DNA from: Deltaproteobacteria bacterium
GTDB lineage: Bacteria > SAR324 > NAC60-12
DNA: 34,685 bases
Assembly (NCBI GenBank): GCA_038150265.1
Contig: JAYOTF010000036.1
Location: 1 to 34,685, forward strand
Reading direction: 5' to 3'
Shown here one piece after another: positions 124 through 34,634 of this stretch. The stretch's first letter is position 1, and each line of letters starts with the position of its first letter. A program made the position numbers and the translations under genes. A model generated the notes under the pieces. It was not told the origin of the DNA and did not search any database. It worked only from the letters and a program-made list of their open reading frames with translations.

Positions 124-675
124 TTAGGCGAGGTCGGCTTTCAGGGCCGCTTTTTGCTCTGGAAGCAGATCGAACTCAAGGCGCATCTCCGGATGCTCGC
201 AGCCCAGGGAAACCGGCGCCGCTCCCTGGGTGTCGAACTTGAGGTACTGCACCGACGAGAGGCGCTCGTCTCCCACCTGGCGGGCATCGAACTGCGCATA
301 AGCCCGCTTCCCATTTTCCAACGCCAGGTACAGCTTCTCCGGGAGCCCCAGCAGCTTCCGCAGCTGCACGTCTCGCTCTTCCGGAGTGGCATACTCGATC
401 AGGAGCACGCAGCCCAGCTCTCCGGACTCACCAATCAGCTCATTGTAGGTGTCCACTTCGTGCTGAATGGCCGACTCCTTGACCAGCCGCTCCGTCCGGA
501 CCATTTCCTGAATCTGGTACCGCACCGTGTCCGTGTTTTCAAACAGGAAGGTCAGGTGTTCGCCCACATGGATGCGGCGGGCTTCCTTGGTCTTCAAGAT
601 GGTGGCACGAATGGCATCGCGCTGCTCCTCATAGGTTTCGTAATCCAAAATTTCACTGCGTTGTACTTTTTGCAT
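124..675 (-). CDS. DUF3501 family protein
   Basis: Motifs RRIHVGEHLTFLFENTDTVRYQIQEM and LSSVQYLKF; third gene of the rubrerythrin / Fe-S oxidoreductase / DUF3501 triad; GGAG RBS. Confidence 0.85.
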   Translation of the reverse strand: MQKVQRSEILDYETYEEQRDAIRATILKTKEARRIHVGEHLTFLFENTDTVRYQIQEMVRTERLVKESAIQHEVDTYNELIGESGELGCVLLIEYATPEERDVQLRKLLGLPEKLYLALENGKRAYAQFDARQVGDERLSSVQYLKFDTQGAAPVSLGCEHPEMRLEFDLLPEQKAALKADLA

Positions 676-676
676 G

Positions 677-2053
677 CTACGACTCCTGATTCGGGGGAAC
701 GACTTTTTGAGGGAATCCGTCCTCGCGGTACGCCCGGGCCAAAATGGTCATCGGGTGCAGCGGACGGACTCCTGCGAACTGCTTAAACTGAATGGCCGCC
801 AACGGGCAGTCGGTGGCCCACACCTCGGCATTGCCTTCCTTCATGCCGTCAAAGGCTTTCTGCCCAATGCGTCCGGAGTCTTCAAACGACTCCACCTTCA
901 TGGCAAAGGTGCCATCGTGGCCGCAGCACTCCATGGTTGTGCTGGCTTTCACCCCGGGAATCTGACGCAGCAGGTCGCGTCCCTTGAAGCCCACGCTTTG
1001 GGCCCGGAGGTGGCACGGCGCGTGGTAGGACACCTTTTCTCCGGGGGTGCTTCTGAAGTTCTTGTTGAACCGCTCTTCCTTGCGGATGTCCCACAGGAAG
1101 TCCGTCGGGTTCTGGATGGCAGCAGCCAGCTTCTTCGCCCGCTCCCGGTCTGCGCCGGCAAGGAGTTCCGGATACTCGCGGGCCATCATCATGGAGCAGG
1201 TGGGGTTGATCGCCAGCACCTTGGCTCCTGACTCCACATACGGCATGAGGATGTCCAGGTTGTGCCTGGCCTGCTTGCGAACCTGTTCCAGATCGCCTTG
1301 CTCCCAAGACGGCATGCCGCAGCACTGAAGCCCCTTGGCGCATGCACAGCGGACCTGGCTCTTTTCCAGCACATTGAGGGTGTCGAAGCCAATCTCGGGC
1401 TCGTTGTTCTGCACATAGCAGGTTTGGAAGAGCACGGCTTCCACCTGGTTCGAGGCGCTCTGCACCTTGCCCTGATCCTCCGCCTGCCTCTCAAAGGTCT
1501 GGCTCGCAAAGTCCGGAAGGTCCTTGTCTCGGTGAATGCCCAGCACCTTTTCCATGAGCCAGCGGTGGGCCTGCACCCGGTTCATCACATTGGCCATGCC
1601 GAAGCTGGCCCGGGCGGCCTTGGCGGAAGCGTCCGGATTTCCCAGCACCTTGTCGCGCAGGGTCGGGGTCTTCTTCTTGGCTTCCTGTGCCTTGTAGCGG
1701 TGGACCAGCTTGGGGAAATCGAGCTGGAACTCGTGTCCGTCGCGGGGCGTGTAGGGACACTGCACCTCACAGAGCTTGCACTGGAAGCAGGCGTCCATGA
1801 TCCGGGACGTGTCCTGATCGTTGACACGCCGGACGTCGCCGTCGTAGCGGTTGTCCAGCAGGTCGAAGAGAATCGGAAAGGAGTCGCAGTACTTGAAGCA
1901 CATGCGGCACCCGTGGCACAGCTCATAAGCTCGCGTCAGCTCCTTCTGCAGCGCACCCGAGTCCCAGTACTTGGGCTCGTCCGGGTCATACGAAAGCCCG
2001 TCGGTGGGGGCGTAGGAGATTCGTTCGTCTGTGCTCATATCCAATTCAGTCAC
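677..2053 (-). CDS. Fe-S oxidoreductase (GlpC/heterodisulfide-reductase-like with CCG domains; rubrerythrin-associated)
   Basis: CHGCRMCFKYC and CFQCKLCEVQCP 4Fe-4S motifs, two CCG motifs (QCCGMP, ECCGHDG); start may be ATG 2038 rather than GTG 2053. Confidence 0.88.
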   Translation of the reverse strand: MTELDMSTDERISYAPTDGLSYDPDEPKYWDSGALQKELTRAYELCHGCRMCFKYCDSFPILFDLLDNRYDGDVRRVNDQDTSRIMDACFQCKLCEVQCPYTPRDGHEFQLDFPKLVHRYKAQEAKKKTPTLRDKVLGNPDASAKAARASFGMANVMNRVQAHRWLMEKVLGIHRDKDLPDFASQTFERQAEDQGKVQSASNQVEAVLFQTCYVQNNEPEIGFDTLNVLEKSQVRCACAKGLQCCGMPSWEQGDLEQVRKQARHNLDILMPYVESGAKVLAINPTCSMMMAREYPELLAGADRERAKKLAAAIQNPTDFLWDIRKEERFNKNFRSTPGEKVSYHAPCHLRAQSVGFKGRDLLRQIPGVKASTTMECCGHDGTFAMKVESFEDSGRIGQKAFDGMKEGNAEVWATDCPLAAIQFKQFAGVRPLHPMTILARAYREDGFPQKVVPPNQES

Positions 2054-2090
2054 AATGGTTGAGGCGGGCAGGGGTTGCCCAGGCCAGGAG

Positions 2091-2119
2091 CCCGGAAGGG
2101 GGCGGGAGCCACTTCCGGG
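2091..2119. other. Intergenic stem-loop between rubrerythrin and Fe-S oxidoreductase
   Basis: CCCGGAAG…CTTCCGGG 8-bp stem plus inner GGC/GCC; no U-tract, so more likely an mRNA-stabilising or attenuating hairpin. Confidence 0.4.
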
Positions 2120-2133
2120 ACAGGTCAGGAGGC

Positions 2134-2553
2134 TCAGGAAATGCTGTCAAGCATTTGCTGGAAGCGTCCGGCGTGAGACTTCTCGGCCTTGGCCAGGGTC
2201 TCAAACCAGTCTGCAATCTCCGGGAAGCCCTCGTCACGAGCGGTCTTTGCCATGCCCGGGTACATGTCGGTGTACTCGTGGGTCTCACCTGCAATGGAAG
2301 CCTTCAGGTTGTCCGCGGTGTCACCAATCGGCAGACCAGTGGCTGGGTCTCCGACCTTGCGGAGGTAGTCGAGGTGACCGTGCGCGTGGCCGGTTTCGCC
2401 TTCTGCCGTCTCGCGGAAGTTTCCGGCGACCTCAGGGTAGCCCTCGACGTCAGCAATTTTGGCCATCCACAGGTAGCGGCGGTTGGCTTGGGATTCTCCA
2501 GCAAAGGCTTCTTTGAGGTTCTCGTGGGTCTTCGTCCCTGTCAGGTTTGACAT
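2134..2553 (-). CDS. rbr: Rubrerythrin (short, di-iron domain only)
   Basis: [41 protein letters not shown]; no C-terminal rubredoxin CxxC pairs; AGGAG RBS. Confidence 0.93.
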
Positions 2554-3752: not shown

Positions 3753-3770
3753 CTCCCGATGAACGTCGAC

Positions 3771-3812: not shown

Positions 3813-3918
3813 GCCTCTCCGCCTGCCGGATACTTTACTGTTTTGACCCCTTGCCCCCAGCAACCGGGTGGCAACCTCCTGAGCAGTCGCTCCTCGTTTC
3901 TCAGCACACATTCATGCC

Positions 3919-6390
3919 ATGGCACTTCTGACCCCCATTCGCTGGCTTCAGGACTTTGTTTCCTGCCCCCTCACTCCGGAAGAACTTGCGGAGCGATTGA
4001 CCATCTCTGGAATGGAGGTGGAAGGTGTGGCGCACATCGGCCAAAACTGGGGAGACCGCTGCCGGGTCGCCGAGGTGGTCGCTGTGGAGAAGCATCCGGA
4101 TGCCGACTCCCTCAGCCTGGTCACCGTGAAGTACGGCGACGAGGACTCCCTCCAGCTGGTCACCGGCGCCCCGAACATCCGGGCGCTCGAAGCCGGGCTT
4201 CCGGAGGCTCCCGTCAAGGTCGCGCTGGCGCTGACCGGCGCCAAGCTGATCAACCCTTACAAGGAAGGGCATCCGCTCACAGAGCTGAAGCCCTCGAAGA
4301 TCCGGGGCATTCGCTCAGAAGGCATGATCTGCTCCGAGCTGGAGCTTGGGATTGGCGAGTCTCATGAAGGCGTGCTCCTGCTTCCGGAAGAGGCCCCCAC
4401 AGGCGCGCTGCTGCAGGACTACCTCGGAGATGCCGTCCTCGATTTCGACATCAAGGGAGGCTTCGCGCACCTGCTTTCCATCCTTGGCATTGCCCGCGAA
4501 ACCGCAGCGATCCTGGATGTTCCTCTGAAACGAGAGGTGCTTCCGGAGGTATCGTCCCTCGAGGTGGTTGCTCAGCCGGACTACGTTGGACTGGAGATTG
4601 CGGATCCGGACCTCTGCCCACGCTACTCGGCCCTGCTCATCCGGGGGGTCAAGGTGGGACCTTCACCCTTCTGGATGCAGCAACGCCTACTCCGCTGTGG
4701 CATGCGTCCCATCAACAACATTGTCGACATCACCAACTACGTCATGCTGGAGCTGGGACAGCCGCTCCACGCCTTTGACTACCAGAAGCTTTGCGAGCGC
4801 GCAGGCGGACGCCCCACCATCATCGTGCGCCGGGCTCAGCCGGGAGAGACCCTGACCACACTGGATGACGTGGAGCGCAAGCTTGACGAAAACATGCTGA
4901 TGATCACCGACACCGCCGGACTGATTGCCATTGCCGGCATCATGGGGGGCGCCGACACCGAGGTTTCAGAAGACAGCACCGACATCCTGATCGAAGCGGC
5001 CAGCTTCGAGTTCCTCAACAACCGCCGCACGGTGCAGCAGCTGAAGCTCCGGACCGAAGCCGCTGAGCGCTTTGGGAAGCAGCTCGACCCCGACGGCACC
5101 CTGCCAGCGGCACTCCGAGCCGCGGAGCTGATGGCCGCCCATGGCGGAGGCACGCTCGAAGCCGTCGCTGGCGACCTCTACCCGGGACGTCCGGAGCCGG
5201 TCACGCTGCAGCTGGATCCGCACTACGTTCAGCGCCTCCTTGGCATTGACTTGCCTGTAGAAGAGATGATCCGGATCCTCAGAGCCCTTGAGTTTACGGT
5301 CACTCCGGGAGACGTGCTGCAGGTAAAGGTCCCCAACCACCGCCAGGATGTCCGCATTCCGGCAGATCTGGTGGAAGAGATCGTCCGCATCCACGGCTAC
5401 ACCCAGATGCCAGCCACCTTGATCCGGGATGAACTGCCGCCTCAGCGTCCCAATCCGGGTGTCGAAAACGCGGAGCGCATCCGGAACCTGCTCACCGGAC
5501 TCGGCCTGGATGAGATCATCACCTACTCCATGATTGATCCGCATGATGAGGCACGGCTGGCGCAGCAAGAGGCTCCGGACCTGACCCAGTTTGTGCCGCT
5601 CAAGAATCCGCTTTCCCAGGAGCGTACCCACCTGCGGCGCACCTTGCTTCCCGGAGCGCTGCAGACGGCTCGCTCCAACCTGCGTTTCCTGGATCGTGTG
5701 ACCCTGTTTGAAATCGGGAGCGTCTTCCACCCCCAGGCGGGCGAAGTCCTTCCGGCAGAACCCCGGCGCCTGAGCATTCTGCTGACTGGAGTCCGGCAAG
5801 CCGCAGGATGGCAAGAGGCCGAGGCCGGCAAACTGGACTTCTTCGACCTCAAGGGCCTGCTGGAGGAATTCTTTCAGGCCCTGCATCTCACCGTCCAGTG
5901 GGAGCAGGCACAGGAAGCGCCGTTTCATCCGGGACGCTGCGCCGCGCTGACGGTCAATGGCGAACCCATCGGCCACGCAGGCGAACTGCATCCGGAGCTG
6001 CGACACGCGTTTGAGCTTCCGGAACAACCGCTGGCGCTGGCACACTTCGACGTTGCCGCCTTGATGGCACAATCGGTCTCCGGATACCAGATGCAGGAAA
6101 TTTCTGCCTTTACGCCTGTGTTTGAGGACCTTGCCGTGGTGGTGGATGTGGACGTTCCAGCGGCTTCGGTTGAAGCCTTGCTGCATGAAGCCGGTGGGGC
6201 CCTGGTCCGCGAGGCCCGGCTGTTTGACGTCTATCAGGGCGAGCAGGTTCCTGCAGGCAAGAAGAGCCTGGCCTATGCCCTGACGTATCAGGCGACCGAC
6301 CGGACCCTCAGCGACAAAGACGTTGAGAAGACGCGCAAGCGCCTCATCAAGCGCCTGGAGCAAACCCTCGGTGCCTCCTTGAGAGCCTGA
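3919..6390 (+). CDS. pheT: Phenylalanine--tRNA ligase beta subunit
   Basis: HPDADSL tRNA-binding OB fold, RPINNIVDITNYVMLELGQPLHAFD (B3/4), DLVEEIVRIHGY (B5), LFDVYQG…GKKSLAY anticodon-binding domain. Confidence 0.97.
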   Translation: MALLTPIRWLQDFVSCPLTPEELAERLTISGMEVEGVAHIGQNWGDRCRVAEVVAVEKHPDADSLSLVTVKYGDEDSLQLVTGAPNIRALEAGLPEAPVKVALALTGAKLINPYKEGHPLTELKPSKIRGIRSEGMICSELELGIGESHEGVLLLPEEAPTGALLQDYLGDAVLDFDIKGGFAHLLSILGIARETAAILDVPLKREVLPEVSSLEVVAQPDYVGLEIADPDLCPRYSALLIRGVKVGPSPFWMQQRLLRCGMRPINNIVDITNYVMLELGQPLHAFDYQKLCERAGGRPTIIVRRAQPGETLTTLDDVERKLDENMLMITDTAGLIAIAGIMGGADTEVSEDSTDILIEAASFEFLNNRRTVQQLKLRTEAAERFGKQLDPDGTLPAALRAAELMAAHGGGTLEAVAGDLYPGRPEPVTLQLDPHYVQRLLGIDLPVEEMIRILRALEFTVTPGDVLQVKVPNHRQDVRIPADLVEEIVRIHGYTQMPATLIRDELPPQRPNPGVENAERIRNLLTGLGLDEIITYSMIDPHDEARLAQQEAPDLTQFVPLKNPLSQERTHLRRTLLPGALQTARSNLRFLDRVTLFEIGSVFHPQAGEVLPAEPRRLSILLTGVRQAAGWQEAEAGKLDFFDLKGLLEEFFQALHLTVQWEQAQEAPFHPGRCAALTVNGEPIGHAGELHPELRHAFELPEQPLALAHFDVAALMAQSVSGYQMQEISAFTPVFEDLAVVVDVDVPAASVEALLHEAGGALVREARLFDVYQGEQVPAGKKSLAYALTYQATDRTLSDKDVEKTRKRLIKRLEQTLGASLRA

Positions 6391-6749: not shown

Positions 6750-6757
6750 CGTTTGCC

Positions 6758-9479: not shown

Positions 9480-10738
9480 CGAGCCTCTGAGGAAGAAGGT
9501 GGGGTCAATTTCAGTTGTACCCGCATGTGGACCACCGAACGCTGTTCCAGGCGTTTGTAATCCTGATGCGTGAGGGTGGCCGCTTGCACGCGGGGGTGGG
9601 CTTCCAGTTGCCGGAGGAGGCGCGGGATGTTGCTTTCTCGCAGCGTCAGCAGTTCCAGTTGCAGCAGGTGCCCTTCGTAGTGAACCGCCTCCAGCCAGGC
9701 CAGGGAAAGCGGGGCCAGCAACGAGTCCAGCAGCTCCGGAGGCAGCCACGCCTGCTGCTCGGCAATCCGCGTTTCCACCGCGGCCAGGCGTTCATGGAGC
9801 CCCTGCTGCTGCTGCGCTTCCTGCAGGGCCGCCCGGCGTTGTTCGTAGGCTGCCAGCTGCTGCTCCGTCCGCTTCAGGTCCTGATCCAGCGCCTTCAGGT
9901 GGGCCTCCGGAACCCAGCGGAGCGCGCCCCACACACCGAGCAGCACCAGTCCCACCGCCAGCAGCGCCCCCTCTCGCCACCACCCGGACTTCTGAGGCAC
10001 GGAGTCAAGCCAGCGAAACGACGCCTCCCACGCAGGCAGATGCTCGAGCGCGTCTGAGAAGCTCACACACGAGCGCTCCTGCGGAGCCTCAGGGCGGCGA
10101 GGCCGGAGCTTGAGCAGAGACAGCTCCTGGCACCCCTGCACATCTTCCGCCCAGGCGGCAAGCTGCTCTTCCGCCAGCTTGGGCATGGGCACCAGCTTCT
10201 TCTCAGGCGAGGTCGGTTCCAGGTAGTACCAGTCTTCCAGCCCATGGAGGGCCCATGCTTCTGCAGCGGCTTCCGGAAGGGATTCCAGCAGCAGTCCCAA
10301 CAGGGGGTGCAGGTGCACCGGCCTGCCAAATTCTTGCTCCAGCGCCTGCTTCAGGTCCAGCGCTGCCGCCGTGGCGCCCACACAGAGGTACGTCACGGAC
10401 TCCGCTCCCCCTTGAGGAGACCGCGCCACCCCAATCAGAGGGAACGGCTCGGGCGCGCCTTCTGGCACGGGCGGTGGTTGCAGTTGCTGGCGGACAAAGG
10501 AGGGCAGTTCCTGAGGCGACAGGGAGATGCCCACGCGCTGCTGGGTGAGCAGCCACGGGCTTTCCAGCAGCAGCACCAACCGCCGAAAGGTGAGCCCCCG
10601 AAGCTCCTGAATCAGGGCTTCCGGAGTCCAGCGGTGGCGCCGGGGCTTGTAGCATCGTTGCTCGTCCTCCAAGCGCCACCAGAGGGTGTGGGCGCCTAAA
10701 ACCACATGGAGCGTCTGGCGGGAGCGCTGCTGAGGCAA
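9476..10738 (-). CDS. Hypothetical bitopic membrane protein, PilN/GspL-like architecture
   Basis: ~260-aa N-terminal domain, one TM (GALLAVGLVLLGVWGAL), coiled coil, C-terminal WLEAVHYEGHLLQLE…LLRQLEAHP pattern like PilN; TTG start; fills the gap between pfaD and the SDR. Confidence 0.55.
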   Translation of the reverse strand: MPQQRSRQTLHVVLGAHTLWWRLEDEQRCYKPRRHRWTPEALIQELRGLTFRRLVLLLESPWLLTQQRVGISLSPQELPSFVRQQLQPPPVPEGAPEPFPLIGVARSPQGGAESVTYLCVGATAAALDLKQALEQEFGRPVHLHPLLGLLLESLPEAAAEAWALHGLEDWYYLEPTSPEKKLVPMPKLAEEQLAAWAEDVQGCQELSLLKLRPRRPEAPQERSCVSFSDALEHLPAWEASFRWLDSVPQKSGWWREGALLAVGLVLLGVWGALRWVPEAHLKALDQDLKRTEQQLAAYEQRRAALQEAQQQQGLHERLAAVETRIAEQQAWLPPELLDSLLAPLSLAWLEAVHYEGHLLQLELLTLRESNIPRLLRQLEAHPRVQAATLTHQDYKRLEQRSVVHMRVQLKLTPPSSSEAR

Positions 10739-22118: not shown

Positions 22119-23765
22119 CTACTTCATGTGCAGTTCATTGAAGAGAATCACCCGCTTGCCGGCATCGTACCAAACCGGGTGCACGTACGGATTCTCAGCC
22201 GTGGGCCACCCGGTGATGCGGGTGGAGTTGTACTGGAACCACGTCGGGTTGGAAAACAGGCTGATGAAGGGCAGGTTCTCGGCGGTGAAGCGCTGCAGCT
22301 CCGCCAGAATCTCCTGCTTGCGCGACGCATCGGTGATCCGTCCATACTCCTCAATCAGGCGGTCCACCTTCTTGGCATGAATGCCATGGTTCGCATGCCA
22401 GATCTGACCAATCCGGGAGGTGTGGAAGTACTCGTTGAAGGTCTGAATCGGATCCACGGAAAGCAACGACCAGTTGATCGCCGCCTCGTAGGTTCCCTGC
22501 TTGAGGCTGCCGTCGTACACGCCCCAGTCCACCGCTTCCACTCGAGACTTGATGCCAATCTCTTCGAGGTACTCGGTCACCATCTGGACCGTCTGCACCC
22601 AGTCCGTCCAGCCGTTGACCACCCGGATGTTGAAGTCAATGGGAGACCCGTCCGGATTCTCCAGGAAGCCGTCCCCGTCGGTGTCCTGGTATCCGGACTC
22701 CTCCAGCAGCGCACGAGCCGCCTCCGGATCGTAGTCCGTGAGCGAGCCGTACTCCTTGGAAACCTGCGGGTCCATGTACTTTTCGAAGTAGCTGCCCAGG
22801 CCTCCGGGGAAGTGATTCACCGTCGGATAGCCATAGGCGGCCAGATCCACAATCGTCTCCCGGTCAAGCGCCATGGAAAACGCCTTGCGGAAGTTCAGGT
22901 CACTGAACGGCTTCTTGCGCGTGTTGAGGTAGATGTGAATCGCATCGTTGGCCGGGTACCAGTAGTGGTGCGTGTCCGGATTCGGAGCCACGTAGGTCTT
23001 TTCAATGTCCGCAATGAAGTTCGAGCCCCAGTCGATCTCATCATTCATCAGCGCCGGCTGAATCTGAGAGTTGTCGTTGAAGGCGCGGTACGTCACACAG
23101 TCCAGGTAGGGGCGCCCTTCCAGGTAGTAATTGGGATTCCGGCAGATCTGCATCTGCTGGGGCTTGACGTACTCAACCTGGGTAATGGGGCCACTGCCCA
23201 CAGGATTCGGGTTCTCAAACGTTGTTGGGTCCTCCACCGCCCCCCAGATGTGTTCCGGAACCACCTGATAATTGGGAATGGACCACTCCACCGTGGTGTC
23301 CACATCCTTCAGCACCACCTGAAAGGTCTGGTCATCCACAGCCACCACGTCCGTGACCTTTCCGGAGGCAAAGAGCCCCGCCGCATCAAACGCCGGGTAC
23401 TTCTGGGCCAGCTTCATGCTGAACGCCACATCCTGGGCCGTCAGTGCCTGTCCATCGGACCACTTGAGCCCGGAACGGAGGGTGTAGTTGATCGCCTTGA
23501 GGTCTTCCGAGTAGCTGAAGGATTCCACCAGCCGGTAGTCCACGGTGCCGGCCATGGTGTTGTACACCAGCAGGGGCTCAAACATGAGGCCCTTGATGTT
23601 GTCGCCGTTGGTGAAGGGGTTGAAGTTTTCCGTGAAGGCAGGGGTGATGATCGGGACCGTCAGCGTTCCGCCCTGTTGGGGAGCCGCGTGAACAGAGGCA
23701 GCCAACCCGAGCCCGACAAGCAGGTGGGTCGATGCCATGGACCAGAAGCGAAGAGTGGATCTCAT
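22119..23765 (-). CDS. Family 5 extracellular solute-binding protein, oligosaccharide-binding subtype
   Basis: Signal peptide ending VHA, NFNPF, KWSDGQALTAQDV, CRNPNYY…DC, GWTDW; ATG 23765 with AAGGAG RBS. Confidence 0.92.
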   Translation of the reverse strand: MRSTLRFWSMASTHLLVGLGLAASVHAAPQQGGTLTVPIITPAFTENFNPFTNGDNIKGLMFEPLLVYNTMAGTVDYRLVESFSYSEDLKAINYTLRSGLKWSDGQALTAQDVAFSMKLAQKYPAFDAAGLFASGKVTDVVAVDDQTFQVVLKDVDTTVEWSIPNYQVVPEHIWGAVEDPTTFENPNPVGSGPITQVEYVKPQQMQICRNPNYYLEGRPYLDCVTYRAFNDNSQIQPALMNDEIDWGSNFIADIEKTYVAPNPDTHHYWYPANDAIHIYLNTRKKPFSDLNFRKAFSMALDRETIVDLAAYGYPTVNHFPGGLGSYFEKYMDPQVSKEYGSLTDYDPEAARALLEESGYQDTDGDGFLENPDGSPIDFNIRVVNGWTDWVQTVQMVTEYLEEIGIKSRVEAVDWGVYDGSLKQGTYEAAINWSLLSVDPIQTFNEYFHTSRIGQIWHANHGIHAKKVDRLIEEYGRITDASRKQEILAELQRFTAENLPFISLFSNPTWFQYNSTRITGWPTAENPYVHPVWYDAGKRVILFNELHMK

Positions 23766-23784
23766 GTGATTTCTCCTTGTTGAA

Positions 23785-25176
23785 TTAAGGCCTTGAGGAA
23801 GCCTGAAGCAAAGCATCTTTCCCTGTCTGCCGTCGACGCTCGTGCATGAGGCGGCAGAAGGCTTTGGCGCTCTCCTTGAGGGTACGTTCCTGAGTCTCAT
23901 AGTTGACGTGGACGAGGCCGAAGCGCTTCTCGTACCCTTCCGCCCACTCGAAGTTGTCCATCAGGCTCCAGGCGAAGTACCCGGTGATGTTCACCCCCTG
24001 CTCAATGGCCTGGTGCACGGCGTTGAGGTGAGCATCGAAATAGCGACAGCGTTGATCGTCATCGACCTCTCCCTTCTGAACCTGGTCGGCGCCGGCGGCT
24101 CCGTTTTCCGTGATCATCAAGGGGGGAAGCTGATACTGACGGTGCAAGTCAACCAGCAACTCGGTGAGCCCTTCGGGGTAGATTTCCCAACCGATGTCGG
24201 TGTGCTCCGCCTCCGGGTTGGGTTCAATCTGTAGGAAGTGCTCCTTGTCGTAACGGCTGATGTTGCGGGTGTAGTAGTTGATCCCGATGAAGTCCATGGG
24301 TGCCGAAATCGTGGCCAGATCGCCCTCCAGTACCAGCGGCTCTTCCTGCGGGTTGAAGCGGTTGTAGATGTGCGGATACTCCCCCCGGAGCAGGGGCTCG
24401 AGGAACCAGTGGTTGCCTCCCGCTTCAGCCAGCTTGGCCGAAATCAGGTCGTCATAACGGTCCGTCTGCGGGGTCATCGGCCCCATGTTCAGCACAATGC
24501 CACTCTTGGCAGCCGGCGCATTGTGACGCAGCACCTCCATTCCCATCCCATGGGCCAGAAGCAGGTGGTGTGCAGCCTGACGCGCATAGCGGATGCTCTT
24601 CAGCCCCGGAGCGTGCACGCCATAGCCGTACCCCAGAAACGACGAGCACCAGGGCTCGTTCAGGGTCGCGTATGAGGTCACGCGGTCTCCCAATTCCCGA
24701 GTCATCAGGTCGGCATAGTCCCGGAACCGGTAAGCGGTTTCCCGGTTGAGCCACCCTCCTCGGTCCTCCAGGTGCTGGGGCAGGTCCCAGTGATACAGGG
24801 TGACGTACGACTGCAGCTCCAGCTCGCCCAGGCGGTCCAGCAAGCGCTTGTAAAAATCAATGCCCACCTGGTTCGGGGTGCCGTCTTCGGCCATCACCCG
24901 TGGCCAGGCGATCGAAAACCGGTACGCGTCCACCCCCAGCTCCTTGATCAGGTTCAGGTCCTGCTCCCAGCGATGGTAATGATCACACGCCGGATTCCCC
25001 GTGTCCCCGTTCTTGACCTTGCCTGGTGTGTCACAAAACGTATCCCAGATGCACGGGATTCGCCCGTCTTCTTGAGTGGCTCCTTCAATCTGAAAAGACG
25101 CCGTCGCCACCCCGTAAGTGAACTCAGGGGCCAGCAGGCTTGTGCCTTCAGGGAGCTTGAATCGGAAACTTGCCAT
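23785..25176 (-). CDS. GH1 beta-glucosidase
   Basis: GVATASFQIEG, CDHYHRW, YRFSIAWPR, TLNEPW (acid/base), ITENGA (nucleophile), WSLMDNFEWAEGY; no signal peptide. Confidence 0.96.
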   Translation of the reverse strand: MASFRFKLPEGTSLLAPEFTYGVATASFQIEGATQEDGRIPCIWDTFCDTPGKVKNGDTGNPACDHYHRWEQDLNLIKELGVDAYRFSIAWPRVMAEDGTPNQVGIDFYKRLLDRLGELELQSYVTLYHWDLPQHLEDRGGWLNRETAYRFRDYADLMTRELGDRVTSYATLNEPWCSSFLGYGYGVHAPGLKSIRYARQAAHHLLLAHGMGMEVLRHNAPAAKSGIVLNMGPMTPQTDRYDDLISAKLAEAGGNHWFLEPLLRGEYPHIYNRFNPQEEPLVLEGDLATISAPMDFIGINYYTRNISRYDKEHFLQIEPNPEAEHTDIGWEIYPEGLTELLVDLHRQYQLPPLMITENGAAGADQVQKGEVDDDQRCRYFDAHLNAVHQAIEQGVNITGYFAWSLMDNFEWAEGYEKRFGLVHVNYETQERTLKESAKAFCRLMHERRRQTGKDALLQASSRP

Positions 25177-25229
25177 GGTGGATCAAATCTTCGCCATTGG
25201 GTGTCAAAGGTACATTCTCAAAATTGAAA

Positions 25230-25245
25230 ATGTAATGGATTACAT
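25230..25245. promoter_or_regulatory. LacI-type operator 1 of the glucan locus
   Basis: ATGTAAT-GG-ATTACAT inverted repeat in the AT-rich divergent intergenic region. Confidence 0.75.
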
Positions 25246-25255
25246 AAAATGAGAC

Positions 25256-25313
25256 TTGAACATCTCCAGGCTGTCAAGACATAATTTCAAAAAAATGAAT
25301 GCAATCGTTTCCA
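25256..25313 (+). promoter_or_regulatory. Putative promoter of the LacI gene plus operator 2
   Basis: TTGAAC (25256-61)-N18-CATAAT (25280-85); TGCAATCGTTTCCA (25300-13) fits TGnAAnCGnTTnCA. Confidence 0.55.
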
Positions 25314-25319
25314 GGAAGC

Positions 25320-26363
25320 ATGAAACATCAGATTGACCTCGAAAAGTATCAAGAAGACGCGCTGGTCCCGACGCTACAGGATGTCGCCCGCCAGGCGCAG
25401 GTTTCTACCGCCACAGTCAGCCGTGCGCTCAGTCAGCCGGATGTGGTCAGCAAGCGCACCCTGAAGCGGGTGCAGCAGGCGGTTGAGTCAACGGGGTACG
25501 TCGTCAACGAAGCCGCCCGGAGCCTCCGCAAGAAAAAATCGGGAGCCTTGCTGGTGATGGTGCCTGCGGTGAGCAGTCCCTTCTTCTCGTTGGTGATGCG
25601 CGGGCTGGAGGCGACGGCGACTCAGGCGGGGTACAGCATCCTGGTGGCCAATACCGAGGATGATGACTTCAAGGAGCGGCAGCTGTTCAGCTACGTCCAG
25701 CAGAACCGTGCGGATGGGGTGCTGATCCGGGGAGGGCGGCCGCCGGTGCAAAAGGGAGAGGTTCAGGGGCGCATCCCTCCGATTGTGGCGGTCAACGAAC
25801 GCATTGAGGGAATCGCCGTGCCCACGGTAGCCGTCAACGGGGAGGACGCGGCCAAGGAGGTGATCCGCTACCTGCTGGGGCTGGGACACCGGCGCATCGG
25901 CCACATCAGCGGCCCCGTCTCGCGCGCGTCTTCGGCCACTGATCGCTTTCGGGGCTATGAAGCCGCCCTCCGGGAGGCCGGGCTGACTTCAACGTGGAAC
26001 CATGCCACCGAGTACAACATGGAGTCCGGAACCCTGGCGGCTCGGGAGTGGATCTCGCTGCCGGAGCGCCCGACCGCGGTGTTCTGTTCGTGTGACGAGG
26101 TGGCCTTCGGCTTCAACTCTGCGCTGTACCGCAGTGGCTTCCGGGTGCCCCGGGACGTGTCGGTGGTCGGCTTTGACGACATTCCCCTGGCCGAGTTCTC
26201 CATTCCCTCGCTCACGACCATCCGGCAGCCTTACCAGGAAATCGGGGTCCGTGCCGTGAAGCTGCTCCTTGAGCAGATCCAGCACCCGAATGAGCCGCTG
26301 GACAGCGTCTTCTTGAAGGGCGAGCTGATCCCCCGTGAGAGCACCCGCCGGCTGGGTGAGTGA
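25320..26363 (+). CDS. LacI family transcriptional regulator (glucan locus)
   Basis: TLQDVARQAQVSTATVSRAL HTH, AARSL hinge, VPRDVSVVGFDD, PSLTTIRQP; ATG 25320 preferred because ATG 25299 overlaps operator 2. Confidence 0.93.
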   Translation: MKHQIDLEKYQEDALVPTLQDVARQAQVSTATVSRALSQPDVVSKRTLKRVQQAVESTGYVVNEAARSLRKKKSGALLVMVPAVSSPFFSLVMRGLEATATQAGYSILVANTEDDDFKERQLFSYVQQNRADGVLIRGGRPPVQKGEVQGRIPPIVAVNERIEGIAVPTVAVNGEDAAKEVIRYLLGLGHRRIGHISGPVSRASSATDRFRGYEAALREAGLTSTWNHATEYNMESGTLAAREWISLPERPTAVFCSCDEVAFGFNSALYRSGFRVPRDVSVVGFDDIPLAEFSIPSLTTIRQPYQEIGVRAVKLLLEQIQHPNEPLDSVFLKGELIPRESTRRLGE

Positions 26364-28636: not shown

Positions 28637-29890
28637 ATGGACATCCACGAACTGATCTCAAAAAACCGACAGGGCCAACAAGCCGGCCTCCCCAGCTTCT
28701 GCACGGCCAACGAGGCCGTCCTCCGCGCCACCCTGAAGCTGGCTGTCGCCCACGACCTCCCGGTGCTCATTGAAGCCACCTGCAATCAGGTCAATCAAGA
28801 CGGCGGCTACACCGGCATGAAGCCTGCCGACTTTGTCGCCTGGCTTTCGGAGCTGGCCCAGCAAACAGGCGTTGCCGCCGGGCAGCTGATGCTCGGAGGC
28901 GACCACCTCGGCCCCAACCCCTGGCGCAAGGAGCCCGTTGAAACGGCCATGGCCAAAGCAGAGGCGTTGGTCAGGGAGTATGCAGAGGCAGGCTTCCGGA
29001 AAATCCACCTGGATGCCAGCATGGCCTGCGGTGGCGAGGAGCGTCCGAGCTTTGCAGAAGTCGCTCGCCGAGCGGCACGCCTGTGCCGGGTTGCTGAAGA
29101 ATCGGCTCCGGATCCGGAGGGGCTGATCTATGTCATCGGCACCGAGGTTCCGGTTCCGGGAGGCGAGACCGAGGAAATGTCCGGACTCCAGATCACGACG
29201 CCGGAGCGCTTGGCCGAAACCGTGTCCACACACCAGGAGGCCTTTGAACACGAAGGCGTGGGCGCCGCATGGGAACGCGTGGTCTCGGTGGTCACACAAC
29301 CCGGAGTTGACTTCAACCACAGCGGCATCCACCGCTTTGCTCCGGAAGCCGCCACCCAGTTGGTCGCAGCGCTCGACTCGTACCGTAGCCTCACCTTTGA
29401 GGGGCACTCCACCGACTACCAGCCCACCGAAGCCCTGGCCGAGCTGGTTGCTCACCACGTGTTCTTCCTCAAGGTCGGGCCCGAGCTGACCTTCCGCTTC
29501 CGGGAGGCCATCTTTGCGCTGGCAGCCCTGGAAGACCGGCTCTGCCCTTCCACCCGCTCGGGAATTGTGGAAGTGCTGGACGCCGCCATGGACCGCCACC
29601 CGCAGGACTGGGAAGCCTACTACAGCGGCTCCCCCAGCGAGGTCGCGCTGCTCCGACACTTCAGCCTCAGCGACCGCATCCGTTACTACTGGCAAGAGGC
29701 TGAGGTCGTCCGTGCGCTGCAGAGGCTGATGGACAACCTGAGTCAAGCCCCCTTGACGATGGGGATGGTTCCCCAGTACTTTGGTTTATTCGAATTTGCC
29801 GACATTCCGTCGGACCCGGAGGAGCTGTGTGACCGGCACATCCAGCGGGTTGCGGCACGGTACTACCGCGCTTGCGGCCTGCTCCCCTGA
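28637..29890 (+). CDS. GatZ/KbaZ family protein, probable D-tagatose-6-phosphate 4-epimerase
   Basis: LIEATCNQVNQDGGYTGM, GGDHLGPNPW, KIHLDASM, GTEVPVPGG, FEGHSTDYQ, LKVGPELTF, SDRIRYYW. Confidence 0.9.
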   Translation: MDIHELISKNRQGQQAGLPSFCTANEAVLRATLKLAVAHDLPVLIEATCNQVNQDGGYTGMKPADFVAWLSELAQQTGVAAGQLMLGGDHLGPNPWRKEPVETAMAKAEALVREYAEAGFRKIHLDASMACGGEERPSFAEVARRAARLCRVAEESAPDPEGLIYVIGTEVPVPGGETEEMSGLQITTPERLAETVSTHQEAFEHEGVGAAWERVVSVVTQPGVDFNHSGIHRFAPEAATQLVAALDSYRSLTFEGHSTDYQPTEALAELVAHHVFFLKVGPELTFRFREAIFALAALEDRLCPSTRSGIVEVLDAAMDRHPQDWEAYYSGSPSEVALLRHFSLSDRIRYYWQEAEVVRALQRLMDNLSQAPLTMGMVPQYFGLFEFADIPSDPEELCDRHIQRVAARYYRACGLLP

Positions 29891-31555: not shown

Positions 31556-31660
31556 GGTGTCTTGAGGAGAAGCGGTCAGGAGAGGGGGAAGCCCGGTAGC
31601 AGGACTTCCGGAGGTGTTCAGCGGGCCCCTTCAGTGGCGGCTCCCGCAGGTTCAGGAGGA

Positions 31661-33133: not shown

Positions 33134-33153
33134 GCGTTGTGCTCAGTGTCGGT

Positions 33154-33828
33154 TCACGCCTGCAGAAGGGCCTGAAGCTGATGGGTGGTGTGCAGCAGGC
33201 TCTGGACACCTGCTTGCGAGAGTTGTTCAATCCGGAAGGCATTCATGTGCTGACCCGCGATAAAGCCATGGACCGGCATGTTGGCGTTCCGTGCCGCCTG
33301 TACGCCGGTGGGCGAGTCTTCAATGACGACACACTCCTGAGGAGCCACGCCATGCTGGGCGGCAAGGTGCAGGTGCAGGTCGGGAGCCGGCTTCGGACGA
33401 AAGGCGTCGGTGCTGAAGGCCTTGCCCGCGCACAGGTCCCACAGTCCAGCAGCCGTCAGGGTTTTTTGCAAGCGTGCCGAGGAGCTGTTGGAGGCAACAG
33501 CCCAAGGCTTTTCGAGGGATGCCAGCAGGGCGGCCATGCCGGGGACCGCTTGTACCTGCGAGGTCACAGCGGCTTCAATCGCCTGATCAATCTGCTCGGC
33601 CTGTGCATCCGGAACCTCGATCCCACCGTCTTCTGCAAGCTGCTGCAGAATCTGCTGAAGCGTCTTGCCGCAGGTCGGCACCATCCACTCTTCGAGAACC
33701 CCCTGTTGCCGAAGGGGATGGTGCCGGGGAAGGACGTCAGGCAACCAGCGCTCCAAACTGGAGAGAAGGGTTTGGTCAGCAATGATTTCACTGTCCAGCA
33801 GTACGCCGTCGCAGTCGAAAATCACCAT
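33154..33828 (-). CDS. HAD-IA family hydrolase (sugar/polyol phosphatase-like)
   Basis: FDCDGVLLDSE, VASNS, KPAPD, IEDSPTGV. Confidence 0.9.
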   Translation of the reverse strand: MVIFDCDGVLLDSEIIADQTLLSSLERWLPDVLPRHHPLRQQGVLEEWMVPTCGKTLQQILQQLAEDGGIEVPDAQAEQIDQAIEAAVTSQVQAVPGMAALLASLEKPWAVASNSSSARLQKTLTAAGLWDLCAGKAFSTDAFRPKPAPDLHLHLAAQHGVAPQECVVIEDSPTGVQAARNANMPVHGFIAGQHMNAFRIEQLSQAGVQSLLHTTHQLQALLQA

Positions 33829-33841
33829 CTTGATTTCCTGA

Positions 33842-33860
33842 CGTCCCCAACCCGGGGACG
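33842..33860. other. Small intergenic stem-loop
   Basis: CGTCCCC-AACCC-GGGGACG between sorbitol dehydrogenase and HAD genes. Confidence 0.4.
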
Positions 33861-33863
33861 GGC

Positions 33864-34634
33864 TTAACTCATCCAGTTGCCCCCGTCCACGTTGTAGGTT
33901 TGCGCCGTAATGTACCGTGCATCATCTGAGGCCAGAAAGACGGCCGGGTCCGCAATGTCTCGGGGCTCACCCATGCGTCCCAGCGGCACCGCTTCTCCCA
34001 CCAGGCGCTTCTTCTCTCCCAGTGGACGGTTCTCGTACTGGGCAAACAGCGAGTCCACGTGGTCCCACATTGGGGTGTCAATGACACCGGGGGCAATGGC
34101 ATTGACCCGGATCTGGTGCTTGGCCAGCTCCAGCGCCAGCGACTGCGTCACGCTGATGATCGCCGCCTTGGTGGCACAGTAGAGCACAATGTATGGCTCT
34201 CCCCGCCGTCCGGCCTGAGACGAAAAGTTGATGATGGAACCGCCCCCCCGCTTGATCATGGACGGCACGGCTGCCTGACAGGTAAAGAGCGTCCCTGCCA
34301 CGTTGACGTCAAATTGGCGACGGTAACGCTCCTCGGTGACCTCTTCGAGGGCACACATGTCAAACACGCCCGCGTTGTTGACCAGCAGGTCAATGCCCCC
34401 GAAAGCCGCTTCTGTTGCGCTGACGGCGGCCTTGATGGAGTCCTGATTGGTCACATCCATCCGGACGCCCCGAGCCTGGTCGCCCAGCTCCTTTGCCAGC
34501 GCCTGAGCATCGTCCTCCAGCAGGTCGGCAATCATCACCTGAGCGCCCTCACGGACGTAGGCTTCTGCGATGCTCCGACCAATACCCCGAGCCGCTCCTG
34601 TAATCAGTGCGGCTTTTCCCTCTAAGCGTTTCAT
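33864..34634 (-). CDS. Sorbitol/L-iditol 2-dehydrogenase (SDR, SmoS/PolS-like)
   Basis: TGAARGIG, NNAG, SSQAGRRGE, YCATKAAIISVTQS, MWDHVDSLFAQYENRPLGEKKRLVGEAVPLGRMG, NVDGGNWMS; AAGGAG RBS. Confidence 0.92.
   Translation of the reverse strand: MKRLEGKAALITGAARGIGRSIAEAYVREGAQVMIADLLEDDAQALAKELGDQARGVRMDVTNQDSIKAAVSATEAAFGGIDLLVNNAGVFDMCALEEVTEERYRRQFDVNVAGTLFTCQAAVPSMIKRGGGSIINFSSQAGRRGEPYIVLYCATKAAIISVTQSLALELAKHQIRVNAIAPGVIDTPMWDHVDSLFAQYENRPLGEKKRLVGEAVPLGRMGEPRDIADPAVFLASDDARYITAQTYNVDGGNWMS

What the first reader, a model, noticed from the sequence alone, without database searches (positions are those of the whole stretch)
188..34465. Highly iterated palindrome TCCGGA throughout the window (HIP1-like signal)
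Seen: a manual scan gives about 100 copies of TCCGGA (one per ~340 bp; count approximate) versus about 12 expected at ~63% GC. It occurs in all three codon phases (CTT-CCG-GAA Leu-Pro-Glu at 4383; ATC-CGG-AAC Ile-Arg-Asn at 5480; TCC-GGA Ser-Gly at 6079), in intergenic DNA (14823, 14862, 31607) and in tandem (29107-29118), with about 14 copies in pheT alone. It often uses T-ending codons that are otherwise disfavoured at this GC. Known: cyanobacterial HIP1 has similar density and is linked to DNA methyltransferases, and Dcm/Vsr repair biases motif frequencies in E. coli. Inference: a genome-wide TCCGGA system (methylation-directed repair, recombination/uptake signal or nucleoid-protein site). 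No methyltransferase is encoded in this window.
Basis: partly seen in the sequence, partly recalled or inferred. Interest (0 to 1): 0.8.

Follow-up and report, generated by a model that had tools for sequence, protein, structure and literature searches.

The report
Phased TCCGGA palindrome across SAR324 genomes
An uncultured SAR324-type bacterium and a clade of its relatives carry the six-letter DNA palindrome TCCGGA thousands of times per genome, spaced in step with the turns of the DNA helix, which points to a still unknown factor that reads the whole chromosome through this word.

Summary
The window holds 106 TCCGGA (12.4 expected). The whole 3.39-Mb genome holds 9,711, making it the commonest hexamer (8.7x).

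The excess survives an amino-acid-preserving codon shuffle (4.2x, z 182) and Markov orders 0-3. It is equally strong in intergenic DNA. 41% of protein-permitted places are filled, uniformly over genes.

It is a lineage trait of part of the SAR324 order at GC 35-62%.

Sites turn over fast. Neighbouring sites show a 10.5-bp helical periodicity written into synonymous codons. The register is whole turns in two genera and half turns in a third.

There is no m5C methylase, Vsr, MutH or SeqA. The one conserved methylase-like gene does not track the trait.

Best reading (0.45): sites of an unidentified double-strand DNA reader, kept by weak selection.

The scan had already noted this motif and its phasing on another piece of the same genome (e1-7657551). 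I re-tested both claims. New here: the phyletic tests, the turnover, the uniformity and the register flip. My four searches of the held paper library listed no report of it.

The parts
188..34465 (.). Array of 106 dispersed TCCGGA sites (one per 327 bp), in all three codon phases and in intergenic DNA
   Evidence: all positions listed; 12.4 expected; genome-wide context
3919..6390 (+). pheT, 14 TCCGGA sites filling 14 of 21 places that the protein sequence permits
380..500 (.). Three sites at 380, 421, 495 (spacings 41 and 74 bp, close to 4 and 7 helical turns)
   Evidence: positions; genome-wide spacing preference
22651..22728 (.). Three sites at 22651, 22692, 22723 (spacings 41 and 31 bp, close to 4 and 3 turns), inside the SBP_bac_5 gene
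   Evidence: positions
14823..14867 (.). Two intergenic sites 39 bp apart, between gene calls 13468-14817 and 15160-18072
   Evidence: intergenic enrichment 2.20 per kb against 0.30 expected
31607..31612 (.). Intergenic site between gene calls 30941-31555 and 31661-33133
29107..29118 (.). Tandem pair TCCGGATCCGGA (spacing 6 bp; 14 such pairs in the genome)
10620..10625 (.). Site that reads TCCGGG in contigs of the four public runs laid (A>G at 10625): an example of site turnover among close strains
23367..26024 (.). Longest site-free stretch of the window (GH1 glycosidase and LacI-family genes). Not significant: GH1 has only 5 permitted places, 0 filled, p 0.07

Best explanation
TCCGGA (core CCGG with a T on the 5' side of each strand; weak extension to TTCCGGAA) is a weakly but constantly favoured DNA word. 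An as yet unidentified sequence-specific factor reads it on double-stranded DNA, and that factor senses several sites at once, as an abundant architectural (nucleoid-type) protein or protein array would.

No single site matters. What is maintained is the density of sites and their helical register relative to neighbours.

SHOWN:
- The excess exists in every codon phase and in intergenic DNA, and is made through synonymous codon choice.
- It is uniform over genes.
- It is inherited by a clade across a wide GC range.
- Individual sites turn over quickly but are retained somewhat more than other words.
- Co-occupancy of neighbouring permitted places oscillates with a 10.5-bp period out to about 180 bp. 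Wrong-phase pairs are depleted 2- to more than 10-fold.
- The favoured phase differs between genera.

INFERRED:
- The periodicity means recognition on the duplex surface by something that contacts or is affected by more than one site.
- The per-site advantage is small. The odds of a permitted place being filled are about 6.4 times the codon-usage expectation, equivalent to a scaled selection or conversion strength near 1.9.

For: (1) A real DNA-level signal. 9,711 sites; 8.67x base composition; 4.18x an amino-acid- and codon-usage-preserving shuffle in all phases (observed 2034/2372/4240 against 517/720/831). Intergenic density is 2.20 per kb against 0.30 expected, and TCCGGA is the top intergenic hexamer.

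(2) 8,646 of 20,959 protein-permitted places are filled (0.413).

(3) Uniform. The variance of per-gene occupancy is 0.0213 against a binomial 0.0214. 0 of 1,144 testable genes are under-occupied. Correlation with codon score is 0.01 and with GC3 0.02. There are 3 site-free stretches of 3 kb or more against 1.8 expected.

(4) Helical phasing. The pair-distance spectrum peaks at 10.6 bp with power 369 against a null maximum of 58. Conditioned on permitted places, power is 208 against a permutation maximum of 55, while the permitted places themselves show almost none. The co-occupancy ratio is 0.13-0.42 at 11-17 bp and 1.4-1.8 at 31, 41-42, 51-53, 61-63, 72 and 95 bp. The mean resultant stays at or above 0.11 out to 180 bp.

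(5) Shared by relatives, at a fixed 10.5-bp period. cos-z is +10.3 in G000 (independent halves +8.6, +5.8) and +4.4 in g11 (G044 +3.9, G051 +2.2). It is -6.3 in G013 of g12 (halves -4.9, -3.9). Pairs near whole turns against pairs near half turns: 1132:577, 122:46 and 81:151. In G013, conditioned co-occupancy is 0.0-0.09 at 31-33 bp.

(6) It is not a generic bending code: AA/TT is not phased to the sites.

(7) Graded recognition. The outer-variant TCCGGG/CCCGGA is co-phased with full sites (z 22.8, same offset), while inner variants are not (z 2.0-3.6). The -1 T preference (x1.57-1.70) is shared by G000, G002, G013 and g11, and is also seen in 317 intergenic sites.

(8) Turnover fits weak selection. 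491 of 1,079 sites are shared with G002 at 82.5% nucleotide identity. With amino acids identical, retention is 0.515/0.694/0.484 by phase against 0.42 for other hexamers.
Against: No reader gene was identified, and no protein family is known to me that binds a 6-bp word at about 10^4 sites with this phasing.

The two halves of the site are nearly independent (cooperativity 1.0-1.22). A symmetric dimer that needs both halves would give more.

The opposite register in g12 rests on one genome (two independent halves). A second g12 genome could not be fetched.

G002 alone is weak (cos-z +1.8; 5 of 500 jitter nulls reach its peak), and G051 alone is weak (12 of 500).

Selection cannot be told from a conversion-type drive by these data.

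Gene calls are my own rough ORF calls. MAG binning may have removed atypical islands, which would inflate the apparent uniformity.
Confidence: 0.45

Rival explanations
1. HIP1-like methylation-linked system. An orphan DNA methyltransferase marks TCCGGA, and a methyl-dependent process (strand discrimination in mismatch repair, SeqA-like tracking of new DNA, or methyl-dependent transformation/recombination as now proposed for HIP1) favours a high density of sites.
For: The word is a palindrome.

There is a precedent in cyanobacteria. Elhai 2015, PMC4390886 (abstract and passages read): HIPs co-occur with cognate methylases. Kamoku and Nielsen 2024 preprint (abstract read): methylated HIP1 raises transformation.

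G000 has a conserved PF01555-type gene ('MTase 2', C51) with motif I DPFMGGGT and motif IV SPPY. It has 915 homologues at E<=1e-10 among the 8,000 candidates scored; those of the 120 listed that carry an organism name are mostly labelled SAR324, and some are named DNA methylase.

Same-face pairing in g1 and g11 recalls SeqA on GATC (recalled knowledge).
Against: G000 has no PF00145, Vsr, MutH, SeqA, PF02384 or Eco57I-type gene.

m5C methylases: 17 of 64 genomes have any hit, 0 of 3 in g12, and only fragments in g11 and g1.

MTase 2 does not track the trait. It is present with intact SPPY in 15 of 15 non-enriched genomes examined. It was not found in enriched G018, G047 and G052, nor in g7, g10 and g8. 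Its catalytic tetrapeptide is altered in 8 of 17 enriched genomes: APPA, NPPM, HPPL, RPPL, RPPF, CPPY, NPPY, RPPY.

Its core is structurally closest to tRNA m2G methyltransferases (Trm11 Z 18.5, TrmN 16.9), with no DNA methylase among the top 50.

The second methylase (C45, beside a retron-type RT) has an orthologue only in G001.

The half-turn register in g12 is not predicted.
Confidence: 0.18
2. Intrinsic DNA mechanics without a dedicated reader. TCCGGA is an anisotropically bendable or bent element, and selection acts on chromosome curvature: coherent bends in g1 and g11, cancelling bends in g12.
For: The helical period of 10.3-10.6 bp and its sign flip between genera are what adding or cancelling bends would give. 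The excess is uniform over genes.
Against: It does not explain why one hexamer alone, out of many of the same composition, is chosen (ACCGGT 745, AGGCCT 1,639, TGGCCA 2,111 against 9,711). It does not explain why a -1 T is preferred in all genera. General bending signals (AA/TT) are not phased to the sites. No such property of this word is known to me.
Confidence: 0.12
3. DNA-uptake or recombination signal spread by molecular drive, as for DUS/USS and as now proposed for HIP1. Cells prefer to take up or recombine DNA that carries the word.
For: ComEC is present in G000 and in 26 of 26 high-quality genomes of the order. Fast turnover with constant density and uniform spread over genes is what a drive gives. 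Rodriguez-Cruz et al. 2026, PMC13756078 (abstract read) argue this for HIP1.
Against: ComEC does not discriminate enriched from non-enriched genomes. A 6-bp palindrome gives little discrimination. Neither the short-range depletion nor the helical co-occupancy, let alone its sign flip, follows from single-site uptake.
Confidence: 0.1
4. Context-dependent mutation or very-short-patch-type repair bias alone creates the word; it has no function.
For: The half-sites are nearly independent (cooperativity 1.0-1.22). The max-order Markov o/e is only 1.22.
Against: One-off neighbours are not drained: TCTGGA 1.29, TCCAGA 1.23, TTCGGA 0.82, TCCGAA 1.04 relative to the shuffle.

The other NCCGG contexts sit at expectation while TCCGG is 3.1x (counts).

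Alternate states at non-shared sites include transitions and transversions at several positions.

There is no m5C methylase or Vsr.

A per-site mutational process does not give phase-dependent co-occupancy.
Confidence: 0.05
5. By-product of codon, codon-pair or dipeptide usage.
For: Phase 2 (xxT-CCG-GAx) is the commonest (4,240 of 8,646).
Against: The excess survives the amino-acid-preserving shuffle in all three phases. It is as strong in intergenic DNA (7.4x, top hexamer). It forces otherwise rare T-ending codons. It holds from 35% to 62% GC.
Confidence: 0.01

Closest known systems
HIP1 (GCGATCGC) and alternate highly iterated palindromes of cyanobacteria. Sources: Elhai 2015, PMC4390886 (abstract and passages read); Xu et al. 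2018, PMC5861425 (search listing only); Rodriguez-Cruz et al. 2026, PMC13756078 (abstract read)
   Same: A short GC-rich palindrome is hyper-abundant genome-wide, in genes and between them. It is a lineage trait with exceptional members that lost it. Sites are retained more than neutral words. The function is unresolved.
   Different: It is a hexamer, not an octamer, in a different phylum. No cognate methylase tracks it, and there is no m5C methylase at all in the most enriched genera. The two half-sites are nearly independent. [quoted passage not shown] The helical register is inverted in one genus.
GATC / Dam / SeqA / MutH of gamma-proteobacteria (recalled knowledge, not from a call)
   Same: A palindromic word is read on duplex DNA. 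SeqA prefers pairs of sites on the same helical face, as the whole-turn preference in g1 and g11 would suit.
   Different: No SeqA, MutH or Dam-class match beyond a motif-I hit was found. From recall, GATC is not strongly over-represented. Here the word is 8.7x enriched, and g12 prefers half turns.
DNA uptake sequences (DUS of Neisseria, USS of Pasteurellaceae; recalled knowledge)
   Same: A dense word spreads through coding and non-coding DNA of a clade, with turnover of individual copies. Uptake machinery is present.
   Different: Uptake sequences are 9-12 nt and asymmetric. No helical co-occupancy between copies is known to me. ComEC does not track the trait.
Dcm/Vsr very-short-patch repair bias on CCWGG-related words in E. 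coli (recalled knowledge)
   Same: A repair system can shift word frequencies genome-wide.
   Different: The enzymes are absent here, the predicted depletion of deamination products is absent, and the effect here is far larger.

Membership tests
Highly iterated palindromes (HIP class, Elhai 2015) | A short GC-rich palindrome far above expected frequency throughout the genome | tested here: met
   9,711 sites, 8.67x; top outlier under Markov orders 0-3 and under the synonymous shuffle
Highly iterated palindromes (HIP class, Elhai 2015) | A methyltransferase specific for the iterated word is present where the word is frequent (abstract of PMC4390886) | tested here: inconclusive
   No m5C methylase in G000 or in g12. 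The only conserved methylase-like gene does not track the trait, has unknown specificity and may act on RNA. Specificity cannot be read from sequence here.
Highly iterated palindromes (HIP class, Elhai 2015) | One-letter deviants biased to the first and last letters | tested here: inconclusive
   The outer variant TCCGGG is 2.23x the shuffle and is co-phased (z 22.8), but the inner variant TCAGGA is also 2.08x
HIP1 itself | The word GCGATCGC | tested here: not met
   The word here is TCCGGA; CGATCG has only 445 sites (o/e 0.40)
HIP1 itself | Sites conserved between relatives beyond neutral expectation (abstract of PMC13756078: 'evolutionary conservation') | tested here: met
   retention 0.515/0.694/0.484 against 0.42 with amino acids identical. 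The excess is modest: only 491 of 1,079 sites are shared at 82.5% identity.
Dcm/Vsr-type repair-driven word bias | m5C methyltransferase and Vsr endonuclease present | tested here: not met
   G000, 97.8% complete; order-wide
Dcm/Vsr-type repair-driven word bias | Depletion of the deamination-product words one step away | tested here: not met
   TCTGGA 1.29, TCCAGA 1.23, TTCGGA 0.82, TCCGAA 1.04 relative to the shuffle
DNA uptake sequences | Competence machinery present | tested here: met
   ComEC in G000 and in 26 of 26 high-quality genomes, but equally in non-enriched ones
DNA uptake sequences | Preferential uptake of DNA carrying the word | not testable with these tools
   Needs uptake or transformation assays
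Dam/SeqA/MutH-type hemimethylation reading | SeqA or MutH homologue | tested here: not met
   none in G000 (the control E. coli rang)
Dam/SeqA/MutH-type hemimethylation reading | Methylated word | not testable with these tools
   Only assembled contigs of public runs were served; no kinetic or signal data
Type II restriction-modification on TCCGGA (BspEI/Kpn2I/AccIII type; names recalled) | CCGG-family endonuclease fold present | tested here: inconclusive
   PF07832 and PF09019: 0 of 64 genomes, but no control genome rang either

The most novel reading that the evidence does not exclude
TCCGGA is the positioning code of a bacterial chromatin-like fibre. A sequence-specific architectural protein assembles along the chromosome through these roughly 10^4 sites. 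Its lattice changed from a same-face arrangement (genera g1, g11) to an alternating-face arrangement (g12).

Inside the TCCGGA-rich lineages, that protein gained a 120 to more than 350 aa highly charged N-terminal extension and, in four genera, lost its catalytic tetrapeptide while staying intact.
Probability: 0.2. Interest if true: 0.9.

Novelty: new variant of a known kind. Interest (0 to 1): 0.8.

Why it matters
Highly iterated palindromes have been a cyanobacterial puzzle for three decades. Here the same kind of signal appears in an unrelated, globally abundant but uncultured marine and estuarine lineage, with two features that make it experimentally tractable.

First, the signal has a helical grammar. 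Phase-dependent co-occupancy is written into synonymous codons. That argues for reading on duplex DNA by something that senses several sites, and it yields direct designs for binding, curvature and pull-down assays.

Second, nature provides comparisons. There are sister lineages without the word, small low-GC genomes nested in an enriched genus in which the excess is only 1.6x, and a genus with the inverted register. Together these are what phylogenetic profiling needs to find the responsible gene.

The signal also matters in practice. A word that fills 41% of permitted places shifts codon usage, and probably k-mer-based binning signatures too, in SAR324 genomes.

Tried and rejected
1. MTase 1 (G000 C45:2844-3617, PF01555, beside a retron St85-type reverse transcriptase). 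Its only orthologue is in G001 (71%). It is accessory and rejected as a cause.

2. MTase 2 as the TCCGGA methylase or reader. A supposed signature in the target-recognition region (3 columns) follows phylogeny and not the trait once g3, g4, g6, g9 and g5 are viewed. Catalytic-motif loss occurs only in enriched genomes (8 of 17 against 0 of 15). That amounts to about 3 independent events, and within family f1 about half of the lineages are enriched, so by my rough estimate the association is weak. The fold is closest to tRNA m2G enzymes. I keep it as a lead only. In one search, five loci (g3, g4, g6) failed my ORF filter and L089 and L092 were not included; one search covers all 32 by tblastn.

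3. CCGG-family endonuclease folds PF07832 and PF09019: nothing in 64 genomes, and the controls were silent. Uninformative.

4. Population variants. 20 runs were found, all served as contigs. Four were laid on 3001-23000. Only 40 of 252 variant places were listed; 1 destroys a site (0.83 expected) and 1 creates one (0.14 expected). No power.

5. Motif-free islands as signs of foreign DNA: none found. The window's 2.66-kb gap is explained by few permitted places.

6. AA/TT, WW, SS and AAA/TTT phasing around sites: no 10.5-bp peak.

7. A substitute iterated palindrome in non-enriched G014: none (top palindrome o/e 2.3, 170 kb).

8. Dense viral contigs as SAR324 fragments: rejected. There were no blastn hits, and 0-3 ORFs per contig had weak protein hits, for the 13 top loci of 80.

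9. A second g12 genome for the register flip could not be fetched. I used split halves of G013 instead.

10. Literature. Four searches listed no paper that treats TCCGGA as an iterated genomic word, and none of the papers listed holds SAR324 together with the palindrome or word-frequency terms. Supplements were not consulted.

Full report
OBSERVATION

The window holds 106 exact TCCGGA. 100 dinucleotide-preserving shuffles give 12.4 +/- 3.8 and at most 22.

The window is contig C36 of a 3.39-Mb, 87-contig, 61.3% GC genome that is 97.8% complete. Genome-wide there are 9,711 sites, one per 349 bp. TCCGGA is the commonest of all hexamers. It is 8.67x its base-composition expectation and stands far above same-composition palindromes (ACCGGT 745, AGGCCT 1,639, TGGCCA 2,111).

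CONTROLS

I made a rough gene call of my own: longest ORFs scored by codon usage, 2,637 genes, 2.94 Mb. Shuffling synonymous codons within each gene, which keeps protein sequence and codon usage, gives 2,068 +/- 36 sites against 8,646 observed (4.18x, z 182, 20 shuffles). The excess appears in every phase.

In 1,200 short intergenic gaps (144 kb) the density is 2.20 per kb against 0.30 expected, and TCCGGA is again the top hexamer.

Markov o/e for orders 0-4 is 8.67, 7.57, 3.95, 2.39, 1.22. The last figure is low because the pentamers TCCGG/CCGGA carry the signal themselves. T precedes CCGG on 44% of sides. The other NCCGG contexts sit at expectation. The two sides are almost independent, with cooperativity 1.22.

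One-off neighbours are not depleted.

Of 20,959 places where the protein sequence permits the word, 8,646 (41.3%) carry it. To make it, the genome uses T-ending codons in 62.6% of cases before Pro-Asp/Glu, against 17.4% overall.

Occupancy is remarkably even. Per-gene variance equals the binomial value (0.0213 against 0.0214). None of 1,144 testable genes is under-occupied. There is no link to codon bias or GC3, and there are no motif-free islands. Occupancy is lower only in the first tenth of genes, which may partly reflect my over-long start calls.

WHO HAS IT

Relatives found through PheT are SAR324-lineage genomes by their record titles. Loci of relatives at 35-62% GC show o/e of about 4-10. 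Other SAR324-labelled loci and the Chloroflexota hits do not.

I counted whole genomes over 64 genomes of the order, with the reversed word AGGCCT as control:
- g1: 3.9-5.9
- g11: mostly 10-32
- g12: 14-30
- g4: 3-8
- g6: 4.5-4.7
- g3: 3.8
- g10: 2.6
- g7: 1.8-2.5
- g2 (9 genomes), g5, g8, g9: about 1
- family f2: 0.1-2

A PheT tree of 34 rows put 19 enriched rows and one weak one in a single clade (SH-aLRT 97), sister to a non-enriched clade. The rows were the window plus 33 of the 79 loci: the SAR324-like full-length rows plus four Chloroflexota. I labelled a row 'enriched' at o/e >= 3.5, so the label is defined by the feature itself.

A genus-level PheT tree (24 rows, quick method, one bad row, G019) refines this:
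- Clade A (g11, g4, g12, g1) is enriched throughout, except for two small, fast-evolving g11 genomes (G041, G050, ratio 1.6) nested inside it.
- g2 is sister to A.
- A second clade holds the moderately enriched g3 and g6, the weak g7 and g10, and the flat g9, g5 and g8.
- Parsimony needs 4 changes. Either the trait is old in the family and was lost several times, or it was gained twice.

These are single-gene quick trees, and kin are not independent.

The non-enriched G014 has no substitute iterated palindrome.

HOW SITES EVOLVE

I compared G000 with G002, a genome of the same genus: 396 genes, 374 kb aligned, 82.5% nucleotide identity. 491 of 1,079 sites are shared (0.455 against 0.336 for all hexamers). 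With amino acids identical, retention is 0.515, 0.694 and 0.484 by phase against 0.42 for other hexamers. The alternative states are ordinary synonymous one-offs at several positions, both transitions and transversions.

So individual sites come and go, while density is held. From, the odds of a permitted place being filled are about 6.4 times the codon-usage expectation. That corresponds to a scaled advantage or conversion bias near 1.9 (my arithmetic, an inference).

HELICAL GRAMMAR

I tested both.

Pair distances in G000 peak at 31, 41-42, 52, 63, 72, 84 and 94 bp. The spectrum peaks at 10.6 bp with power 369, against a null maximum of 58.

The signal could have come from alpha-helix periodicity of proteins. 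It does not. Conditioned on permitted places, co-occupancy still oscillates (power 208 against a permutation maximum of 55), while the permitted places themselves show almost no such period. Co-occupancy is 0.13-0.42 at 11-17 bp and 1.4-1.8 at whole turns. Phasing is detectable to about 180 bp.

AA/TT and similar bending signals are not phased to the sites. The outer variant TCCGGG/CCCGGA is co-phased (z 22.8), and the inner variants are not.

The -1 T preference (x1.6-1.7) and avoidance of G at -1 are shared by G000, G002, G013 and g11, and are seen in intergenic sites too. The -2 C and -3 G preferences are confined to g1.

THE REGISTER DIFFERS BETWEEN GENERA

At a fixed 10.5-bp period and distances of 18-110 bp:
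- G000: cos-z +10.3 (two independent halves +8.6 and +5.8); 1,132 pairs near whole turns against 577 near half turns.
- G002: cos-z +1.8; 78 against 42.
- g11: cos-z +4.4 (G044 +3.9, G051 +2.2); 122 against 46.
- G013 of g12: cos-z -6.3 (halves -4.9 and -3.9); 81 against 151.

Conditioned on permitted places, G013 has co-occupancy of 0.0-0.09 at 31-33 bp and troughs at 21, 42, 53, 63, 72 and 84 bp. Its peaks lie at 27, 37, 47-50, 57, 67, 76 and 88 bp.

So the same word and the same period are kept, but neighbours favour the same face in g1 and g11 and opposite faces in G013.

CANDIDATE ENZYMES

G000 has no PF00145, Vsr, PF02384, MutH, SeqA or Eco57I-type gene. m5C methylases are sporadic in the order and absent as full-length genes from g1, g11 and g12.

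Two PF01555-type genes exist.

MTase 1 sits beside a retron-type reverse transcriptase, and its only orthologue is in G001.

MTase 2 is vertically inherited. It is found in 52 of 64 genomes, including the non-enriched g2, g9 and g5 and 18 of 19 f2 genomes. It was not found in g7 or g10, in g8 (only a weak motif-level match to other methylase-like genes), or in several g11 genomes, even with a profile query. So its presence does not track the trait.

Two derived states of MTase 2 do lie only in TCCGGA-rich lineages:
- The catalytic tetrapeptide is SPPY in 15 of 15 non-enriched genomes. It is altered in 8 of 17 enriched ones: g12 CPPY/NPPY/RPPY, g3 APPA, g6 NPPM/HPPL, g4 RPPL/RPPF. The reading frames are intact.
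- A long charged N-terminal extension is present in g1, g12, g11 and g4. It is short in g2, g5 and most f2 genomes.

This amounts to about three independent events, so the association is weak.

A confident model of the core (pLDDT 92) is closest to tRNA m2G methyltransferases (Trm11 Z 18.5/181 aligned, TrmN Z 16.9), with no DNA methylase in the top 50. Foldseek gave weak mixed hits that included EcoDam. Its substrate is unresolved. I treat it as a lead, not a finding.

ComEC is universal in the order. CCGG-family endonuclease folds were not found, but the controls were silent.

INTERPRETATION

Codon or dipeptide artefacts and simple repair bias are excluded, or nearly so.

The phase-dependent co-occupancy includes active avoidance of wrong-phase neighbours that is stronger than mere loss of benefit. 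In G013 at 31-33 bp the ratio is below 0.1, whereas the neutral level would be about 0.3. A per-site mutational, repair or uptake process does not predict this. It points to recognition on duplex DNA by something that senses several sites.

I therefore favour an unidentified sequence-specific architectural reader kept by weak selection (0.45). Behind it come a methylation-linked HIP1-like system (0.18), intrinsic DNA mechanics (0.12), an uptake/recombination drive (0.10) and mutation bias alone (0.05).

Against my reading:
- No reader was found.
- The half-sites are nearly independent.
- The register flip rests on one genome.
- Selection and conversion-type drive cannot be separated with these data.

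COMPARISON AND NOVELTY

The closest known class is the highly iterated palindromes of cyanobacteria (PMC4390886, abstract and passages; PMC13756078 and the 2024 preprint, abstracts; PMC5861425, listing only).

This case shares the defining hyper-abundance, the lineage distribution and the modest site conservation. It differs in the word, the phylum, the lack of a tracking methylase, the half-site independence and above all the helical grammar with a lineage-specific register.

Four literature searches listed no report of an iterated TCCGGA, and none of the papers listed holds SAR324 with the palindrome or word-frequency terms. The scan itself had flagged the motif and its phasing on another window of this genome.

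I class it as a new variant of a known kind.

Noticed in passing
L273, L222, L216/L234/L238, L215, L226 (viral-contig loci): Several IMG/VR contigs at 34-39% GC are very dense in TCCGGA: for example 13 sites in 5.7 kb with 13 of 16 CCGG in that context (L273), and 22 sites in 10 kb (L215). They were ascertained by three close sites. They share no nucleotide similarity with the SAR324 DNA I hold. Some are clearly phage-like: RecE/RecT plus a DNA methyltransferase on L222, a head protease on L226, an SbcC-like nuclease on L273. Hosts are unknown. Earlier scan notes describe T4-like phages with the same word.
   Followed up: partly
L230/L231 (one 249-kb viral contig): 31 TCCGGA in 10 kb fall largely inside a 2,324-aa collagen-like tail-fibre gene, so here the density may be a coding-repeat effect and not a genome-wide signal.
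   Followed up: partly
G000 contig C45:1404-5096 (locus L080): A retron St85-type reverse transcriptase (469 aa) lies directly upstream of a 258-aa PF01555 methyltransferase (TSPPYW ... DPFAGGGT) and a 311-aa protein with no Pfam or NCBIfam match. This is possibly a defence island; the methylase has an orthologue only in G001.
   Followed up: partly
G000 contig C51:1-1387 (locus L081) and orthologues L083-L094, L358-L377: The conserved methyltransferase-like protein 'MTase 2' carries RDERPRR-type Arg/Asp/Glu repeats at its N-terminus in g1 (an open frame of up to 351 aa upstream of the core in G002). It loses its (S)PP(Y) catalytic motif in genera g3, g4, g6 and g12 while the frame stays open. 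All forms share a KRRxSxSQxN-like motif before the core.
   Followed up: yes
L029, L032, L033, L036, L047, L061, L062, L064 (Chloroflexota/Anaerolineae loci): GCGCGC is the commonest hexamer in many of these loci (for example 114 counts on both strands in 22.5 kb of L029). This may be another iterated palindrome in an unrelated lineage, or a simple (GC)n effect.
   Followed up: no
G023, G021, G026 (family f2 genomes): TCCGGA is strongly under-represented relative to the reversed control (133 against 987; 40 against 182; 37 against 151). This is the pattern expected of restriction avoidance. These genomes also have many PF01555-type hits (16-18).
   Followed up: no
window 18848-19971: Contigs of all four public runs laid join 18850 to 19968, skipping about 1.1 kb of the window (table 5). 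The match on one side is short (40 letters), so this may be a strain-level indel or a repeat artefact.
   Followed up: no
PheT relatives: After SAR324, the nearest PheT relatives are Chloroflexota (Anaerolineae) at 41-56% identity. In the PheT tree, two SAR324-order rows (L043, L052) group with them. This hints at an old transfer of pheT or a tree artefact.
   Followed up: no
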